Below the pieces are notes generated by a model. It searched no databases and had not been told where the DNA came from. It worked only from the letters and a program-made list of their open reading frames with translations. From a virus (Duplodnaviria > Caudoviricetes), in IMG/VR virus record IMGVR_UViG_3300021399_000009, positions 44,607-108,606 of that record: a DNA stretch of 64,000 nucleotides; one strand, given 5' to 3'. Shown piece by piece: positions 945-64,000 of this stretch; within the stretch, counting starts at the first letter, position 1, and every line of letters begins with the position of its first letter. The position numbers and the translations under genes are program-made.

Positions 945-973
945 TTGACAAAGTACAAATCGTGTGGTATAAT
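945..973 (+). promoter_or_regulatory. Sigma-A promoter with repeated operator motif filling the spacer
   Basis: TTGACA(945-950)-17 bp-TATAAT(968-973), TG extended -10; spacer AAGTACAAATCGTGTGG. Confidence 0.9.
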
Positions 974-43585: not shown

Positions 43586-43660
43586 TGGTGACGATTGCGA
43601 GAATTGAACTCAGCATTGCATCCTTGAAAGGGATGTGTCCTACCTTTAGACGAAACCGCC
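43586..43660 (-). tRNA. tRNA-Glu(UUC), CCA encoded
   Basis: Cloverleaf; loop CTTTCAA; U11:A24, U13.G22, 4-nt variable loop; one bulge in the T-stem. Confidence 0.88.
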
Positions 43661-43769
43661 ACATAGCTCTTTTTACACCGATTTACCATAAAGGTGGCTA
43701 AGCAACGTATTATCGGGAACGTTTACTCTAAAATAGAGCCTCGCACAGCGAGTAGAGCATAATGCTCGT

Positions 43770-43845
43770 TGGTCACGGAGACAGGATTTGAACCTGCGAG
43801 TGCCAGAATGAAAATCTGGTGAGTTAGCCACTTCTCCACTCCGTG
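43770..43845 (-). tRNA. Atypical tRNA with UUC (Glu) anticodon and His-like body
   Basis: CACGGAG/CTCCGTG acceptor, CCAGA-TTTTCAT-TCTGG, GCAGG-TTCAAAT-CCTGT, A73-CCA. Confidence 0.85.
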
Positions 43846-44095
43846 ATAATGCACTGGTTTGCTACTTGTCCGTAACCTACCAATGTGCAGGTTTGCCTTT
43901 CCACATTAGGTTGTGGCAACCATAAAAGTCCTTGCGTAGTCAGCTTGTAGGCATAACAGAGGCTTGCAAGGCTCATTGATTATTGATTATCAAAGCAAGC
44001 CTTGACAACCTTTCAACATCATAAAGTGCTCGTAAAGAGCTGTGTCTTAAAAGACCTACCGTGGTACGCTTGCAACAGAGGCGTGGTAGGTACGT

Positions 44096-44171
44096 TGGCG
44101 GTCACAGTAGGACTTGAACCTACGACAACTCGGTTAACAGCCGAGTGCTCTACCGACTGAGCTATATGACC
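44096..44171 (-). tRNA. tRNA-Asn(GUU), CCA encoded
   Basis: Canonical cloverleaf, CTCGG-CTGTTAA-CCGAG, G73. Confidence 0.95.
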
Positions 44172-53781: not shown

Positions 53782-53810
53782 ATTATATCATAATATTTAT
53801 ACTTTGTCAA
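53782..53810 (-). promoter_or_regulatory. Sigma-A promoter of the leftward rep-RNAP operon
   Basis: TTGACA-17-TATAAT, TG extended -10. Confidence 0.88.
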
Positions 53811-53834
53811 GAGAAAAAATAAAAAAATAAAAAT

Positions 53835-53992
53835 TCCCCCTCTGGGGGACGAACGAGCGTAGCGAGTGAGATAGGGGGATATATTATAGAGTTATAGAAT
53901 TATAATTTAATATTTACTATTTAATATTTACTATATTGGGGACAGGGACGGTAAACTTCGCTACGCTCAGTTGACCTTTGCCCTTTCCCCAA
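53835..53992. other. Stem-loops carrying inverted GAGCGTAGCGA motifs (primosome/ssi-like)
   Basis: GAGCGTAGCGA 53855-53865 and TCGCTACGCTC 53958-53968, the latter in the loop of a G/C-rich stem. Confidence 0.55.
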
Positions 53993-55102
53993 ACCCCTTT
54001 TCCTAATTTAATTATCTTATATATCTGTTATTAGAGTGTATATTATTTTTCTGATTTATTAGCGTATTATTGGGATTTATTAAGGATTTGAAAATTTGGT
54101 ATGATTATTTATGCGATATTTTAATAATTAGTTTATGGCTATATATAGAGAAGTGAATGATAATTAATATGGGAAGATGTGGGGATAATGGAGTGGAATG
54201 AGTTAGCGTGAACTGGTGTGAATGGAGTAGAACACCTTACCCAGTATTCCGGCAGCGAAATTTGATTTAAAATGTAAACATACCCCGTATATAATTTTTA
54301 CAAAGTGCCGTATTTGCCTATTTACCGCCGTTTAATTTCCGTTTTGTTCATTTTAAGTAATTAAGATATTTAATAAAAAGAACGACTGTTCTATTTGATG
54401 GTAATCATTTAAGTGAAAAATTAATTAAACATTGGTTATTTAAGCACTTAATTTAAGAGCTTAAACGCAGCTTAATTAAGTTATTATGTGATTAAACAAT
54501 TGAGATTAATTTATCTGATAGTTTAATTAAATTTATACTTAAAAGATTAACTCCCTTTAATTATTTTGTTGCAATTGCAACACATAACAATAATAAACAT
54601 GAATATTCATATACAAAACGCTCAATAAATCCCTATAAATAGCCAAAAATCAATATACATATAACAAATATTCATAAAAATGCAAAAATATTCACTATTA
54701 ATTAAATAATAAAACATAAAAAACTGCTCAAAATCAGACTTGAAAAAAACGCTCAAAAAATGTTTATTTTTTCCCTATATATAGCCATTTATGGCACTTC
54801 AAAAAAAGTCAAAAAATAGCCGTTTTTCTCAGCTCAGACAGCCAATTGTTGAAAACTCATTAAAAACTGCACAAAAATATTTACTTCTCATTGTATAATA
54901 TGCACAACACGTCTCTTTTATATTATAATAGTATACTACTCATACTATGACGAACAGTATAAAACAAATATAATATTACAAACTGTATTCACACAAACAC
55001 TTTAATACACTAAAATCTTATTGCTTATTGCACAATTATTCAATTTAACACACTAAAGTTTTTTGTGCAACCATCCAAAACTAAAAAACTTTTCAAAAAT
55101 CG

Positions 55103-55131
55103 TTGACAAAGTAAAAATCATGTAGTATAAT
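55103..55131 (+). promoter_or_regulatory. Sigma-A early promoter with operator motif in the spacer
   Basis: TTGACA-AAGTAAAAATCATGTAG-TATAAT; A-tract UP region. Confidence 0.9.
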
Positions 55132-55139
55132 AGCATTGT

Positions 55140-55685
55140 AAACAAAACACGGAGCAACAAAAAGCTCCAACGTCCCGACTTGATACGGGACGCTAAAAGA
55201 ATTCAGTTAACGCCGCAAATTTTGTGGTATTACGGTATATCATAGGGGCGTACACCGTTAGTTATAATGCAAGTGTACGGGGCGTGTGCCAACGTGCCTA
55301 ATAACATGGCAGGCAGCTATTGCCAAAGTATAGCAGCCGAAAATAAACAATTTTCCGCTATAAGCGACTTGAAAAAGTTTCAACGCTTATACCGTGGAGC
55401 AGTCCACGCAAAATAAACAGTGCCGTAACAGTGCAATATCTCTTCTGTATAATCTGTACAGCGTGACAAAGTTGATGTTGTCAATAGGTACTATGTTCTT
55501 ACTGTACAATAACACTAATTTTGTGCGGTATTACCTTAAAACATAGGCGGTGAAATAAAATAGCTAATACCGAAAAATAGCTGAATAAAGGGACTTTTTG
55601 AAAAATTTTTAGGTAGTCCCGACTCTGTAAAGAGGCGTTAAGGCGTGAGCCGTATTGCGGTAAAAAATTTGTACGGACTACTAAT
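55140..55685 (+). ncRNA. Candidate large structured ncRNA / leader
   Basis: No ORF of 60 codons or more in the track; more than 12 helices including long-range ones; G-U wobbles and GNRA loops on the + strand. Confidence 0.7.
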
Positions 55686-55705
55686 TACAATAATTCTATG
55701 CTATA

Positions 55706-55734
55706 ATTATACTCAAATTATAGCATTTTGTCAA
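55706..55734 (-). promoter_or_regulatory. Antisense sigma-A promoter embedded in a hairpin
   Basis: TTGACA-17-TATAAT on the minus strand. Confidence 0.6.
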
Positions 55735-55833
55735 GCGGTATTGGAGTTAATTCTAATACCGCTATATATGTACAATTTAGCGTAAATCCGCTGAAAAGTA
55801 CAACCATAATTCTAATTTTAGGAGGTCATTATT

Positions 55834-56142
55834 ATGACAAAATTTATACTTTTTTTAGGACTGTTCGATAAAGACAGCAAAGCACAAGAGATAAGCACTC
55901 TCAATGCGTTCAAAATAGCCTCAAATCTGGTTACTGATATTGTAGGCTATGGCACTATAACTGAGGCTATGGGTATCTATACTCATGATGATGGTACTAT
56001 CGTTAATGAGCCTACACTCCGTATTGAAATAACTGGAAGTGAACTCGAAAAAATCAAGAGGCTTGCTATAGTCTTAAAACAGGCATTTAATCAAGAATCA
56101 GTCGCTCTTGAAAAGGTCAATTCAGACTTTAATTTTGTATAA
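55834..56142 (+). CDS. SAM lyase-like (T3 SAMase/DUF3574-like) protein
   Basis: G.Y....G....E.T.R.......RLA.......QESV resembles T3 SAMase GCY...EEKTVRV...RLA....EQDCV; first early gene. Confidence 0.65.
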   Translation: MTKFILFLGLFDKDSKAQEISTLNAFKIASNLVTDIVGYGTITEAMGIYTHDDGTIVNEPTLRIEITGSELEKIKRLAIVLKQAFNQESVALEKVNSDFNFV

Positions 56143-56157
56143 TCACAAAGTACAAAT

Positions 56158-56244
56158 CATATAGCTAATAATGCAGAGTAGGGGTGTATTATACGCCCTT
56201 AATGCAGCCAGTCAGACGGTTACAAGCCCGTGACTAACTGTATA
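56158..56244 (+). ncRNA. Twister ribozyme, P5-type permutation
   Basis: AAUGCAGAG-[P1 hairpin AGGG.../CCCU]-UAAUGCAGC...ACGGUUACAAGCCCGU; predicted cleavage 56200/56201. Confidence 0.88.
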
Positions 56245-56269
56245 AATCTAATTTTAGGAGGCTAATATT

Positions 56270-56530
56270 ATGTTAGTAAATGGCAATATTGTTGAACTGC
56301 GTCCAACAGATTCTCATAAAAGTTTTTACGGTAAAGCCCGTGTTGTTATGGCTGAAAATGGGGATAAAACTCTAATCAGCTATACAACTCCCGTTCTCCG
56401 TCTTACTTCTGACGGTAAACTGGAAAAGTTGTGGGATGGATATTCTGCCACAACTATGAGACATATAAATTCATTTTGTGACACTTTCGGTATCAACGGA
56501 GGCGGTAAAAGGTGGTGGGAAACTTTATGA
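56270..56530 (+). CDS. Conserved-looking early phage protein
   Basis: AGGAGG RBS; KSFYGKA...SY.T.V...W.GYS.TT.RHI. Confidence 0.8.
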   Translation: MLVNGNIVELRPTDSHKSFYGKARVVMAENGDKTLISYTTPVLRLTSDGKLEKLWDGYSATTMRHINSFCDTFGINGGGKRWWETL

Positions 56531-56814
56531 CACACAAATACTCTTTGCGGTATTGGATAGGTGAAACGTGGTTCAATCTAAGGGAAAATTTACCTTTCTT
56601 TGCACTCTTTTTACCACCATACCATTACAACGTCAAGGAAAATGTAAGCTGTTTAAGTTGGAATTTTGCAAATAATGTGCAATACTATTCAAGACCGCCT
56701 ACATTTTCAAAAAAGCATAACGCTGATGGAGGCTTGTGGAATTTTCTGCAAGCCTTAAAGCTACTCTGTCATATCCAAAGTAGACAGGTGCTTAATATCT
56801 TTTTGGGAGGCTAA
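56527..56814 (+). CDS. Hypothetical protein
   Basis: ATGA overlap. Confidence 0.55.
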   Translation: MTHKYSLRYWIGETWFNLRENLPFFALFLPPYHYNVKENVSCLSWNFANNVQYYSRPPTFSKKHNADGGLWNFLQALKLLCHIQSRQVLNIFLGG

Positions 56815-56818
56815 TACT

Positions 56819-57178
56819 ATGACTAAAACTGGATATTTAAGAGGCTTTAAACGTCTTACAACTGAGGAAATTTCTGAGGAAAAAGAACGCCTTAGAGCTG
56901 CTGGAATTAGACTTGATGTTGAAACTGGAAAACTCTACAACTCTAAAAATATCCCTTTGGGAATAGTTAGCGGAGTTACAACACCTACTGGAAAACAGTA
57001 CAAGATAGGCTCTCAGAATGGAAATTCTGACGTATGGTACAATGACAGATTTCTTGGTGATAACTATGCCGTATTTGTGAAAGTGGAAAAGTGCGGATTT
57101 TGGCAGCAGATAACACCATGGTATTGTCGTATTGGAAATGCTGTAAAACGTATGACAAAAATTTCACAGGAGGGCTGA
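56819..57178 (+). CDS. Hypothetical protein
   Basis: GGGAGG RBS. Confidence 0.75.
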   Translation: MTKTGYLRGFKRLTTEEISEEKERLRAAGIRLDVETGKLYNSKNIPLGIVSGVTTPTGKQYKIGSQNGNSDVWYNDRFLGDNYAVFVKVEKCGFWQQITPWYCRIGNAVKRMTKISQEG

Positions 57179-57181
57179 ACT

Positions 57182-57394
57182 ATGAAAATAACAATCGGAA
57201 ATTTTCTCGATAAAGGTTTGGAAAATGGTACTATCAAGCCTAATCAGATAGTAGCATACTATGACCATAACAATAACTTAAAATGGCTTGGAAAAGCTGA
57301 ATTTGCACCTATTTTCTTGGATTGGGCTGCACTCGACCACTATGAATATGTGGAAAATGAACTGAGAATATGGGAGGAAAAACGTCCATGTTAA
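57182..57394 (+). CDS. Hypothetical protein
   Basis: AGGAGG RBS. Confidence 0.75.
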   Translation: MKITIGNFLDKGLENGTIKPNQIVAYYDHNNNLKWLGKAEFAPIFLDWAALDHYEYVENELRIWEEKRPC

Positions 57395-57582
57395 TCAAAG
57401 ACCTAAAAATAGGGGAATATTTTACCCTTAAACCGATAGAAAATCCAACGGAAAAACAAGTCTTTATCCGTGGAGAATATGACCGCACTGAAAAGAAATT
57501 TGAGTGCGGTCGTTTTGATGATATAAGCTATACACGTTATCTCAGCGGAAAAACTGAGGTATACACTGACTTTACATTCTGA
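57388..57582 (+). CDS. Hypothetical protein (SH3-like small beta protein)
   Basis: GGGAGG RBS; IKDLKIGEYFTL. Confidence 0.75.
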   Translation: MLIKDLKIGEYFTLKPIENPTEKQVFIRGEYDRTEKKFECGRFDDISYTRYLSGKTEVYTDFTF

Positions 57583-60958: not shown

Positions 60959-60987
60959 TTGACAAAGTACAAATAGTGTAGTATAAT
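60959..60987 (+). promoter_or_regulatory. Sigma-A promoter with operator motif in the spacer
   Basis: TTGACA-AAGTACAAATAGTGTAG-TATAAT; second degenerate copy at 60998-61014. Confidence 0.9.
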
Positions 60988-62980: not shown

Positions 62981-63991
62981 ATGACAAAGGCAAACATTTC
63001 TTGGAACATTAATCAGATAGTAAAGGGTATGAACAATGGAACTATCCGCTTTGACAATGCTATTCAGAGAGGGTATGTGTGGGACAAAAAGAGAGCATCA
63101 CTTCTTATTGATAGCGTACTCAGGGAATATCCTGTACCGCCTATTTTCACAATCAAGACAGAGGAAAAAATCAAGGTTAAGAGTAAGGAAGTTTCTGTCT
63201 ATGACTGCATAGACGGAAAGCAGAGGTCAACTACATTCAAGTTGTTTATGGAAAATGCTTTTAAACTGGAAGGACTTGAACCAATTATTCAGTCAGACGG
63301 TTCGGAAATTGATATAAATGGACTGACCTTTGAAGAACTTGACGAGGAAATGCAGGATGCTATTAAATCATATACGTTGACAGTTTATTACTTCTCAGAC
63401 ATTACCGATGATGAAGTTGCGGAAATGATGTCAAGACTGAATAATGGTAAGGTACTGACTGGAACGGAAAATGCACGTATCAAAGCAAAGCAGCTTGACA
63501 CTATTAAGGAACTTGCAAGTCATAATCTGCTGACAAACTACCTTACGGAAAAAGCCATTAAGGGATATGTCAATGAGGACATCGTAATCAAGTTCGCACT
63601 TCTTCTTAGCGAACAGACGGAACTTTCAAATAAGAATGTTCGTGAAGCATATGAAACTTATAGTTTTGGAGAAACCATTTGTAAGAGTATCAATGATACT
63701 ATGGACTTTGTTCTTGAAGCTATCGAGGATAGCACTGATGACAGGAAGATTATCAAGCGTATGACTTCAAAGGCAAATCTGATAACTATTCTGTATGTGG
63801 CTCACGAATATCTTATCAATGGAAATTCTGATGTGAGTGAGTTCGCTGATAGACTGGCTGAGTTCTTCAATGGAACTGAGGGAGCTACTATTTCGGAAGA
63901 TTATAACGATGCTTGCACCAATGGAACAATGCGTAGTGCAAATGTACTTACAAGGAATGACGAGTTCTACAAGTATGTAATAGGAGAATAA
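62981..63991 (+). CDS. Stand-alone DUF262 (ParB-like, GmrSD N-terminal type) protein
   Basis: QRGYVW, LIDSVL..YPVP, IDGKQR, RLNNG..LT. Confidence 0.88.
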   Translation: MTKANISWNINQIVKGMNNGTIRFDNAIQRGYVWDKKRASLLIDSVLREYPVPPIFTIKTEEKIKVKSKEVSVYDCIDGKQRSTTFKLFMENAFKLEGLEPIIQSDGSEIDINGLTFEELDEEMQDAIKSYTLTVYYFSDITDDEVAEMMSRLNNGKVLTGTENARIKAKQLDTIKELASHNLLTNYLTEKAIKGYVNEDIVIKFALLLSEQTELSNKNVREAYETYSFGETICKSINDTMDFVLEAIEDSTDDRKIIKRMTSKANLITILYVAHEYLINGNSDVSEFADRLAEFFNGTEGATISEDYNDACTNGTMRSANVLTRNDEFYKYVIGE

Positions 63992-64000
63992 TATAACATT

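What the first reader, a model, noticed from the sequence alone, without database searches (positions are those of the whole stretch)
55103..56270. Synthesis: candidate RNA-centred entry module (ornate RNA + SAM lyase + ribozyme)
Inference from the separate observations: one operator-controlled promoter next to the putative genome end makes a transcript that the twister cuts at ~56200. This would give a discrete ~1,060-nt RNA (large structured domain plus SAM-lyase-like ORF) and a 5'-OH polycistron of small early genes on GGAAA-rich DNA. I know of no described system with this combination; it is my best candidate for a new system in the window.
Basis: inference. Interest (0 to 1): 0.82.

Follow-up and report, generated by a model that had tools for sequence, protein, structure and literature searches.

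The report
Phage early operon: leader RNA, SAM lyase, twister
Related phages swap them independently, so they are neighbouring modules rather than one new RNA-centred system.

Summary
The window is part of a 108.6-kb circularly assembled phage genome of rumen/gut type.

**Confirmed elements**
- A perfect sigma-70 promoter lies at 55103-55131.
- A non-coding leader of about 630 nt follows. It folds far better than shuffled sequence, and substitutions keep pairing on the + strand only.
- The 102-aa ORF is a true SAM-lyase-fold protein. Its top PDB fold match is Svi3-3, and all ligand-binding residues are conserved.
- A type-P5 twister lies at 56172-56231, above the Rfam gathering score, with a covarying P1 stem. 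Predicted cleavage is at 56200|56201, so the roughly 1,060-nt arithmetic holds.

- Among 27 related loci, many with an identical SAM lyase, only 7 carry this leader. Those 7 come from about four contigs.
- The other loci carry at least four unrelated leader cassettes.
- The twister is present in most close relatives (27 of 31). It is absent in four of them and in all more distant relatives checked.
- A genome end next to the promoter is not shown. The record's 127-bp terminal repeat looks like an assembly overlap.

**What is new**
- A hypervariable locus of long structured leader RNAs with no Rfam match. Cassette B shows 21 compensated pairs.
- A perfect converging antisense promoter.
- A small covarying hairpin in front of the first ORF after the leader, which is the SAM-lyase gene in all but two loci.

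The scan earlier found a parallel case on other DNA: a hammerhead ribozyme beside a phage SAM lyase.

The parts
55103..55131 (+). Early promoter P(+): TTGACA, 17-nt spacer, TATAAT. Predicted transcript start is about 55138.
   Evidence: 12/12 consensus match. It is one of at least 6 near-identical promoters in the genome.
55138..55768 (+). Type-A structured non-coding leader RNA. It has two 5' hairpins, a long-range helix enclosing a multi-hairpin domain, and no Rfam match.
   Evidence: z = -6.4 and -5.3. Against L062, 12 of 14 substituted pairs stay paired on the + strand, compared with 2 of 6 on the minus strand. No Rfam hit at E <= 10.
55212..55335 (+). Hypervariable block inside the leader. 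It cannot be aligned between the window and L062, while the flanks are 95-100% identical.
   Evidence: Alignment A1. No second copy in the genome.
55471..55660 (.). The only piece of 54400-57400 found in RNA libraries.
   Evidence: Three metatranscriptome runs from two studies each hold one 154-176-nt contig here at over 99% identity. Two contigs end at 55646. Strand unknown.
55706..55734 (-). Perfect converging antisense promoter P(-).
   Evidence: 12/12 consensus match. An equivalent minus-strand promoter abuts the conserved 5'UTR in cassette types A, B and C, and in L050 and L008.
55150..55198 (-). Two terminator-like hairpins on the minus strand. They are the same two hairpins that cap the 5' end of the + leader.
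   Evidence: They would end a P(-) transcript after about 540 nt.
55769..55802 (+). Small conserved two-helix hairpin with an invariant UAAAUY loop, about 30 nt before the first ORF after the leader.
   Evidence: 95.7% of cells paired, 4 pairs changed on both sides, 0 of 500 shuffles reach the score, and slid controls collapse. One copy per locus in 36 loci.
55834..56142 (+). 102-aa SAM lyase (possibly a SAM-AMP lyase).
   Evidence: AF2 pLDDT 94.5. Foldseek top hit 6zm9 Svi3-3, E = 5.7e-7, TM 0.73. All Svi3-3 ligand residues are aligned and invariant. Pfam PF23780 scores 22.2 bits, below its cut-off of 28.
56146..56157 (+). Stand-alone copy of the promoter-spacer motif CAAAGTACAAAT, between the lyase stop codon and the twister.
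   Evidence: 5 copies in the window against 0.11 expected. The same 20-mer sits at another gene junction in L062.
56172..56231 (+). Type-P5 twister ribozyme. Predicted cleavage is between 56200 and 56201.
   Evidence: Rfam RF02684 at 45.8 bits against a gathering score of 37.6. 40.5-55.5 bits in relatives. The core is invariant and the P1 stem is fully compensated.
56270..56530 (+). First gene of the 3' cleavage product: an 86-aa DUF8033 / phrog_4264 protein of unknown function.

Best explanation
This is the head of the early operon of a mosaic phage of about 108 kb. It is built from independently exchangeable modules, not one co-adapted system.

A host sigma-A-type promoter starts a transcript with a structured leader of about 630 nt. 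This 'type A' leader is one of at least five unrelated leader cassettes found at this hypervariable locus in the clade. The two 5'-terminal hairpins and the compact fold most likely stabilise the transcript. The leader is also the overlap zone for a perfect converging antisense promoter, whose RNA of about 540 nt stops at those same hairpins. This sense/antisense collision probably tunes or times early expression.

The first protein made is a SAM lyase. It removes the cofactor of SAM-dependent defences (type I/III R-M, BREX), or the SAM-AMP signal of type III CRISPR.

The twister then cuts the polycistronic RNA at 56200|56201 without any host factor. The lyase mRNA ends in the P1 hairpin with a 2',3'-cyclic phosphate. 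The DUF8033 mRNA begins with a 5'-OH. The stability of the two halves is thereby uncoupled, as RNase III sites do in T7/T3 early RNA.

Shown here: the sequence elements, the fold, the conserved residues, the covariation and the mosaicism. Inferred: co-transcription, cleavage in vivo, and the stability and timing effects.
For: - Promoters and terminators.
- Leader structure and its strand.
- Cassette replacement despite an identical lyase.
- Other cassettes have the same architecture: a + promoter 450-730 nt upstream, a long non-coding stretch, and a minus promoter abutting the conserved 5'UTR. Cassette B shows 21 compensated pairs.
- SAM lyase.
- Twister. It is the only Rfam ribozyme in the whole genome.
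- Published view that phage ribozymes process polycistronic RNA, with the hammerhead-ardA precedent.
Against: - No transcript ends were mapped. The RNA evidence is three low-depth contigs covering only 55471-55660, with strand unknown.
- That a sub-fragment is the only piece recovered from RNA libraries could mean a discrete trans-acting RNA rather than a mere leader.
- Type A covariation rests on two divergent sequences, and on a structure chosen by RNAalifold from that same alignment.
- In Firmicutes a 5'-OH end can favour RNase J1 decay (glmS; my own knowledge, not checked here), so the direction of the stability effect is uncertain.
Confidence: 0.6

Rival explanations
1. One reading: leader RNA, SAM lyase and twister are one co-evolved RNA-centred entry or anti-defence system, whose product is the discrete RNA of about 1.06 kb.
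For: The three are adjacent, co-oriented and without a predicted terminator between them. The arithmetic from 55138 to 56200 is right. The lyase and twister travel together in 27 of 31 close loci.
Against: The leader is exchanged for unrelated cassettes next to identical lyase genes. Extra ORFs are inserted on either side of the lyase. The twister is absent in L052/53, L077, L080, L090, L093 and L095.
Confidence: 0.08
2. The type-A RNA, or a sub-fragment of 150-270 nt around 55460-55730, is a free-standing trans-acting ncRNA. It could be a decoy, a sponge or an assembly RNA in the manner of ROOL/GOLLD or phi29 pRNA. The leader cassettes would then be interchangeable RNA 'genes'.
For: Pairing is conserved on the + strand. 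Cassette B is multi-hairpin with 21 compensated pairs. Only 55471-55660 appears in three RNA libraries from two studies. An internal promoter-like site lies at 55425-55453, a 10/12 match. An AU-rich hairpin followed by UUUU lies at 55697-55730. A sub-module of about 45 nt is shared with the otherwise unrelated L077 leader.
Against: No RNA ends or strand were determined. There is no Rfam match. The distribution of type A is very narrow. Cassette C and the L077 leader do not fold better than shuffles, at z = -1.3 and -1.9.
Confidence: 0.2
3. The stretch is chiefly a DNA-level control region, such as an origin, a packaging site or an operator array. Its palindromes would be protein-binding sites, not RNA structure.
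For: It lies at the divergence point of the two gene arms beside a 1.3-kb AT-rich region with repeated palindromic motifs. The minus strand also folds better than shuffles, z = -3.5. Other cassettes pair an RHH-like gene with palindromic promoter spacers.
Against: Substitutions preserve pairing through G-U only on the + strand, and break it on the minus strand. A long-range helix with arms about 200 nt apart is kept. Part of the stretch is found in RNA libraries.
Confidence: 0.1

Closest known systems
T3/T7 early region: host-RNAP promoters A1-A3, a long leader, gene 0.3 (SAM lyase in T3) as first gene, and RNase III sites between early genes
   Same: Strong host-type promoter, a leader of several hundred nt, an anti-restriction SAM lyase as the first protein, and endonucleolytic cutting of the polycistronic early RNA into separate mRNAs. 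The role of SAM lyase comes from PMC7877911 and PMC8406200. The T7 layout is from my own knowledge.
   Different: The cut is made by a self-cleaving twister, not host RNase III. The lyase is a 102-aa Svi3-3-like form, not a T3 homologue. The genome is about 108 kb with an unrelated gene set. A converging antisense promoter is present.
Hammerhead ribozymes flanking genes in prophage operons, including ardA in Agrobacterium (Perreault et al. 2011, PMC3088659)
   Same: A small self-cleaving ribozyme in an intergenic spacer of a phage polycistron, directly beside an anti-restriction gene. The proposed role is mRNA processing.
   Different: The ribozyme class differs: type-P5 twister. There is a single copy in the whole genome, not ribozymes flanking the gene on both sides.
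Twister-P5 (Rfam RF02684), and the reported association of twister and hammerhead with phage genes (Harris 2015 PMC4604425; review PMC6765202)
   Same: Passes the family threshold. The core is invariant and P1 covaries. The phage gene context matches the published association.
   Different: The specific neighbours (SAM lyase upstream, DUF8033 downstream) appeared in none of the papers I read. The association does not extend to 20 other DUF8033 loci.
Large 'ornate' phage-associated RNAs (ROOL, GOLLD) and phi29 pRNA
   Same: Several hundred nt, multi-branched, phage-borne, from rumen/gut Firmicutes-type phages, function unknown. Like pRNA, it shows conserved architecture with little sequence identity, and it is transcribed from an early promoter (my own knowledge).
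   Different: No Rfam match at E <= 10. It is fused to an mRNA as a leader and is exchangeable as a cassette. No evidence of multimerisation.
Face-to-face promoter switches, such as coliphage 186 pR/pL and pCF10 prgQ/prgX
   Same: Two strong converging promoters with an overlapping transcribed zone. In sister cassettes a small RHH-like regulator gene and a palindromic operator in the + promoter are also present.
   Different: The overlap is about 560 nt, far longer. In the window's cassette no regulator gene is present and the antisense RNA is non-coding.

Membership tests
Twister ribozyme, type P5 (RF02684) | Score at or above the Rfam gathering threshold over the full model | tested here: met
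   45.8 bits against 37.6, model positions 1-58 of 58. Relatives score 40.5-55.5 bits.
Twister ribozyme, type P5 (RF02684) | Invariant core nucleotides with helices supported by covariation | tested here: met
   The core, including the cleavage-site UAAUGC, is identical in 8 variants. The P1 stem is replaced by a fully complementary different sequence in L008 and L054.
Twister ribozyme, type P5 (RF02684) | Self-cleavage giving a 2',3'-cyclic phosphate and a 5'-OH | not testable with these tools
   RNA contigs do not cover 56172-56231.
SAM lyase (Pfam PF23780; Svi3-3 type) | Pfam gathering score | tested here: not met
   22.2 bits against a cut-off of 28, E = 1.5e-4. The profile against the 6zm9 sequence gives E = 0.48.
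SAM lyase (Pfam PF23780; Svi3-3 type) | PII-like ferredoxin fold closest to solved SAM lyases | tested here: met
   pLDDT 94.5. Top PDB hits are 6zm9 and 6znb, then the SAM-AMP and SAM lyases 9gab and 9lqd, ahead of CutA and PII proteins.
SAM lyase (Pfam PF23780; Svi3-3 type) | Ligand-binding and catalytic residues Gly56, Tyr58, Glu69, Gln104-Glu105-Ser106 and Gly18-Leu19 of Svi3-3 | tested here: met
   They align to G47, Y49, E59, Q87-E88-S89 and G9-L10. All are invariant or nearly so in 23 homologues. The residue list is from PMC7877911.
SAM lyase (Pfam PF23780; Svi3-3 type) | Trimer, and lyase activity on SAM rather than SAM-AMP | not tested
   No complex job was run. Substrate choice needs an assay (PMC12255297).
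Known large structured RNAs in Rfam (ROOL, GOLLD, HEARO, OLE, raiA, riboswitches, T-box) | Any covariance-model match | tested here: not met
   In 54500-57000 at E <= 10, only the twister and two chance-level hits were found. Nothing in the cassette B, C or L077 leaders at gathering score.
   Leader A is in 7 of 27 loci and the twister in 27 of 31 close loci. Neither is present in L090, L093 or L095.

The most novel reading that the evidence does not exclude
The head of the early operon in this clade of 100-115-kb rumen phages is a hypervariable locus. It holds interchangeable, unrelated, large structured RNAs: type A here, type B with 21 compensated pairs, and others. These would act as RNA-level host-takeover or anti-defence effectors, the RNA counterpart of an anti-defence gene island. 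Each would be opposed by a conserved antisense promoter. Type A, with its internal hypervariable domain and its stable fragment of about 180 nt seen in metatranscriptomes, would be one member of a new class of phage RNAs.
Probability: 0.13. Interest if true: 0.75.

Novelty: new variant of a known kind. Interest (0 to 1): 0.42.

Why it matters
The biological role of bacterial and phage self-cleaving ribozymes is still open (PMC6765202). This locus offers a clean natural case. A single twister sits exactly between an identifiable anti-defence gene and the next early gene. Natural variants exist with the twister, without it, and with it displaced, which could be compared directly.

Separately, the clade shows something less expected. 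It has a recombination hot-spot where leaders of about 0.5-0.7 kb are swapped as cassettes while the flanks stay identical. Two of the cassettes, A and B, show structural constraint and none matches a known RNA family. If these RNAs act on their own, they would add to the small set of large phage-borne RNAs of unknown function, such as ROOL and GOLLD.

The short SAM lyase of 102 aa also extends that enzyme family into rumen phages.

Tried and rejected
- BLASTN of 55100-56270 against the phage collection found no match.
- An exact 17-mer from the leader gave 12 hits in IMG/VR. All but the own lineage and L077 were coding-sequence coincidences.
- nhmmer with the type-A leader against all held loci found only type A, the shared 5'UTR, and a marginal motif in L077 at E = 0.02. 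No sequence homology between cassettes was therefore shown.
- A further fetch of contigs encoding 97-99% identical lyases produced no new type-A variant.
- The hypervariable block has no second copy or complement in the genome, so a guide or antisense role against the phage itself is not supported.
- A link between twister and DUF8033 was rejected. 20 other DUF8033 loci have no Rfam ribozyme, and L066 has the twister without DUF8033.
- A riboswitch in the lyase leader was rejected for known classes.
- Small ORFs in the leader lack ribosome-binding sites and are not conserved in L062, so type I toxin-antitoxin and leader-peptide readings were dropped.
- Folding 55460-55665 alone gave no clear domain, with z = -2.5 on the + strand and -1.9 on the minus strand.
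- RNA contigs do not cover the promoter, the lyase gene or the twister. This says nothing about their expression.
- One of my shuffle scripts timed out.

Full report
**Context.** The window is bases 44607-108606 of a 108,606-bp IMG/VR virus record. Its 'direct terminal repeat' is a 127-bp identity between the two record ends. That is what a circular assembly gives, so the physical termini are unknown. The finding is not demonstrably near an end.

Genes left of about 53.8 kb run on the minus strand, and genes right of 55.8 kb run on the plus strand. Between them lie about 2.2 kb without credible ORFs. The first 1.3 kb of this gap has 20-30% G+C, and the G+C rises to 35-43% at 55.1-55.7 kb. Relatives come from cattle-rumen and gut metagenome assemblies, as contigs of 99-116 kb.

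**The four elements.**

1. *Promoter.* The promoter at 55103-55131 matches the sigma-70 consensus 12/12. It belongs to a family of at least six near-identical promoters in this genome. Their shared spacer word CAAAGTAyAAAT occurs 5 times in the window against 0.11 expected. Two of those copies, at 1003 and 56146, are stand-alone. That the word is an operator is only an inference.

2. *Structured stretch.* The stretch 55138-55830 folds at -209.7 kcal/mol, z = -6.4. For 55138-55700 the + strand gives z = -5.3 and the minus strand z = -3.5. Rfam gives no match at E <= 10.

3. *ORF.* The ORF at 55834-56142 scores below the Pfam SAM-lyase threshold, at 22.2 against 28 bits.
   - Its model built from 23 homologues has pLDDT 94.5.
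   - The best solved-structure matches are the Svi3-3 SAM lyase 6zm9 (E = 5.7e-7, TM 0.73), then 6znb, then SAM-AMP and SAM lyases. CutA and PII proteins rank lower.
   - The profile alignment to 6zm9 puts G9-L10, G47-x-Y49, E59 and Q87-E88-S89 on Svi3-3 G18-L19, G56-V57-Y58, E69 and Q104-E105-S106. These are the residues that Guo et al. identify as conserved or ligand-binding (PMC7877911).
   - All of them are invariant or nearly so in the family.
   - I therefore accept it as a SAM lyase. The alternative is a SAM-AMP lyase acting against type III CRISPR signalling (PMC12255297).

4. *Twister.* The Twister-P5 at 56172-56231 passes the Rfam gathering score. In eight variants the core is identical, while the P1 stem is exchanged for a different, fully complementary sequence. 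The conserved U^AAUGC puts the cut between 56200 and 56201. It is the only Rfam ribozyme in the whole genome.

**Synteny test.** I fetched 31 loci encoding relatives of the lyase and tabulated them.

- Among contigs whose lyase is 98-100% identical, the segment from about 54935 (or 54720) to 55763 (or 55704) is replaced by unrelated sequence.
- Type A is present in 7 of 27 loci with enough upstream DNA. These come from about four contigs and give three sequence variants: the window, a 98.9% variant, and L062 at 86%.
- At least four other cassette types exist: B (L057, L061, L063, L056, L079, L080, L087); C (L065, L066, L055); D (L052, L053); and E (L008, L054, L050 in part).
- All cassette types join the same last 70 nt or so before the first ORF.
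- The twister is present in 27 of 31 close loci and truncated by the contig end in L065. It is absent in L052/L053 (lyase directly followed by DUF8033), in L080 (a 97-aa ORF instead) and in L077. It is also absent in L090, L093 and L095, whose lyases are 62-69% identical.
- In L008, L050 and L054 a 92-aa ORF lies between the lyase and the twister. In L062 a 37-aa ORF lies between the leader and the lyase. In L066 the twister is followed by a different gene.
- 20 other DUF8033 loci have no ribozyme.

**The leader RNA is nevertheless real.** Against L062, the flanks of the leader are 95-100% identical, while 55212-55335 cannot be aligned.

- Outside that block, 12 of 14 substituted predicted pairs remain paired on the + strand, mostly through G-U intermediates. 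These include six in a long-range helix joining about 55226-55244 to about 55420-55436.
- On the minus strand only 2 of 6 remain paired, and the covariation term is positive.
- This favours a + strand RNA over DNA palindromes. It rests on few sequences, however, and on a structure chosen from that same alignment.
- Cassette B gives independent support that such leaders are structured. It has z = -4.2 and 21 pairs with compensatory changes across six variants, in at least six hairpins and a closing helix.
- Cassette C and the L077 leader do not exceed shuffles.
- Type A shares a sub-module of about 45 nt with the otherwise unrelated L077 leader, where it occurs in tandem. The sub-module is a CCGUGG...CCACG hairpin followed by an A-rich tract.
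- Three metatranscriptome runs from two studies contain only 55471-55660 out of the 3 kb laid. Each holds a single contig of 154-176 nt at over 99% identity. Each carries the G>A variant at 55547 that is also seen in the 98.9% lineage. Two of the contigs stop at 55646. This is a weak hint of a stable RNA piece. Strand, ends and level are unknown.

**Convergent transcription.** A second perfect promoter at 55734-55706 points leftwards into the leader. The two hairpins that begin the + RNA (55151-55168 and 55171-55192) read as intrinsic terminators on the minus strand. This defines an antisense unit of about 540 nt.

A minus promoter abutting the conserved 5'UTR recurs in cassettes A, B and C, and in L050 and L008. 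Cassette B also has a minus-strand terminator about 60-80 nt inside the + transcript.

The other cassettes carry a 65-72-aa RHH-like gene on the minus strand. Their + promoters have palindromic spacers that differ between cassettes, which looks like a set of alternative regulatory specificities. The window's cassette has neither feature.

**A small conserved RNA.** The one RNA element that is conserved across all cassettes is a 34-nt two-helix hairpin at 55769-55802 with an invariant UAAAUY loop.

- 95.7% of cells are paired, and four pairs changed on both sides.
- 0 of 500 shuffles reach the observed score, and slid controls collapse to 16-47% paired.
- It occurs once per locus in 36 loci, and always ahead of the first ORF after the leader.
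- It overlaps a five-codon ATG...GCG-TAA frame that has no ribosome-binding site.

**Mechanism.** The best reading is a T3/T7-like early operon assembled from modules.

1. A host promoter starts transcription.
2. A stabilising and regulatory leader follows, opposed by antisense transcription.
3. The SAM lyase is the first protein made.
4. The twister cuts the RNA without host factors, where T7 uses RNase III.
5. The lyase mRNA is left with a 3' hairpin and a cyclic phosphate. The DUF8033 mRNA is left with a 5'-OH end.

Published work already proposes polycistron processing for phage ribozymes, and documents hammerheads flanking the anti-restriction gene ardA (PMC3088659; PMC6765202; PMC4604425). 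An earlier follow-up in this scan reached the same view for a hammerhead beside a phage SAM lyase on other DNA.

**Verdict.** The unifying interpretation is not supported. The locus is a new variant of known themes. The one open and interesting item is the swappable structured leaders, which belong to no known RNA family.

Noticed in passing
window 945-973, 55103-55131, 60959-60987 (+); 53810-53782 (-); also G000:C1 6795, 23100, 38082: A family of near-identical consensus promoters, TTGACAAAGTAyAAATnnTrTrGTATAAT. Stand-alone copies of the spacer word lie at 1003 and 56146. The same 20-mer sits at gene junctions in relatives, so it may serve as a recombination boundary for gene shuffling.
   Followed up: partly
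L057:2316-2534, L065:2605-2802, L008:3002-3199 and others (minus strand): The alternative cassettes carry a 65-72-aa RHH-like protein gene diverging from a + promoter. That promoter's 17-nt spacer is a palindrome that differs between cassettes, which looks like alternative repressor/operator specificities. The window's cassette lacks it.
   Followed up: partly
L057:2881-3396 and five variants (alignment A7): The cassette-B leader is a multi-hairpin RNA with 21 compensated base pairs and no Rfam match. It is a candidate new structured RNA in its own right.
   Followed up: partly
window 55769-55802: A conserved covarying hairpin with a UAAAUY loop lies ahead of the first early ORF. It overlaps a conserved five-codon ATG...TAA frame that has no RBS.
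   Followed up: yes
window 53810-55100; L008, L050, L054, L077 upstream regions: An AT-rich stretch of 1.3 kb (20-30% G+C) holds repeated palindrome-like words of the form CTATAAATAGC. The words are also present in the same region of relatives, so they may be protein-binding sites of an origin or partition type.
   Followed up: no
L077:2280-2550 (= L013): Three CCGUGG...CCACG hairpins lie in a G+C-rich leader of about 500 nt in a 57-kb relative. Two are followed by the same A-rich tract as in the window's leader.
   Followed up: partly
window 63874-64000 and G000:C1:1-127: The record's 'direct terminal repeat' is exactly 127 bp. That is consistent with a k-mer overlap from circular assembly rather than true phage termini.
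   Followed up: yes
window 43589-44171 (-) and G000:C1:7728-7800 (+): Four tRNA genes are in the phage genome: three clustered in the window and one in the other part.
   Followed up: no
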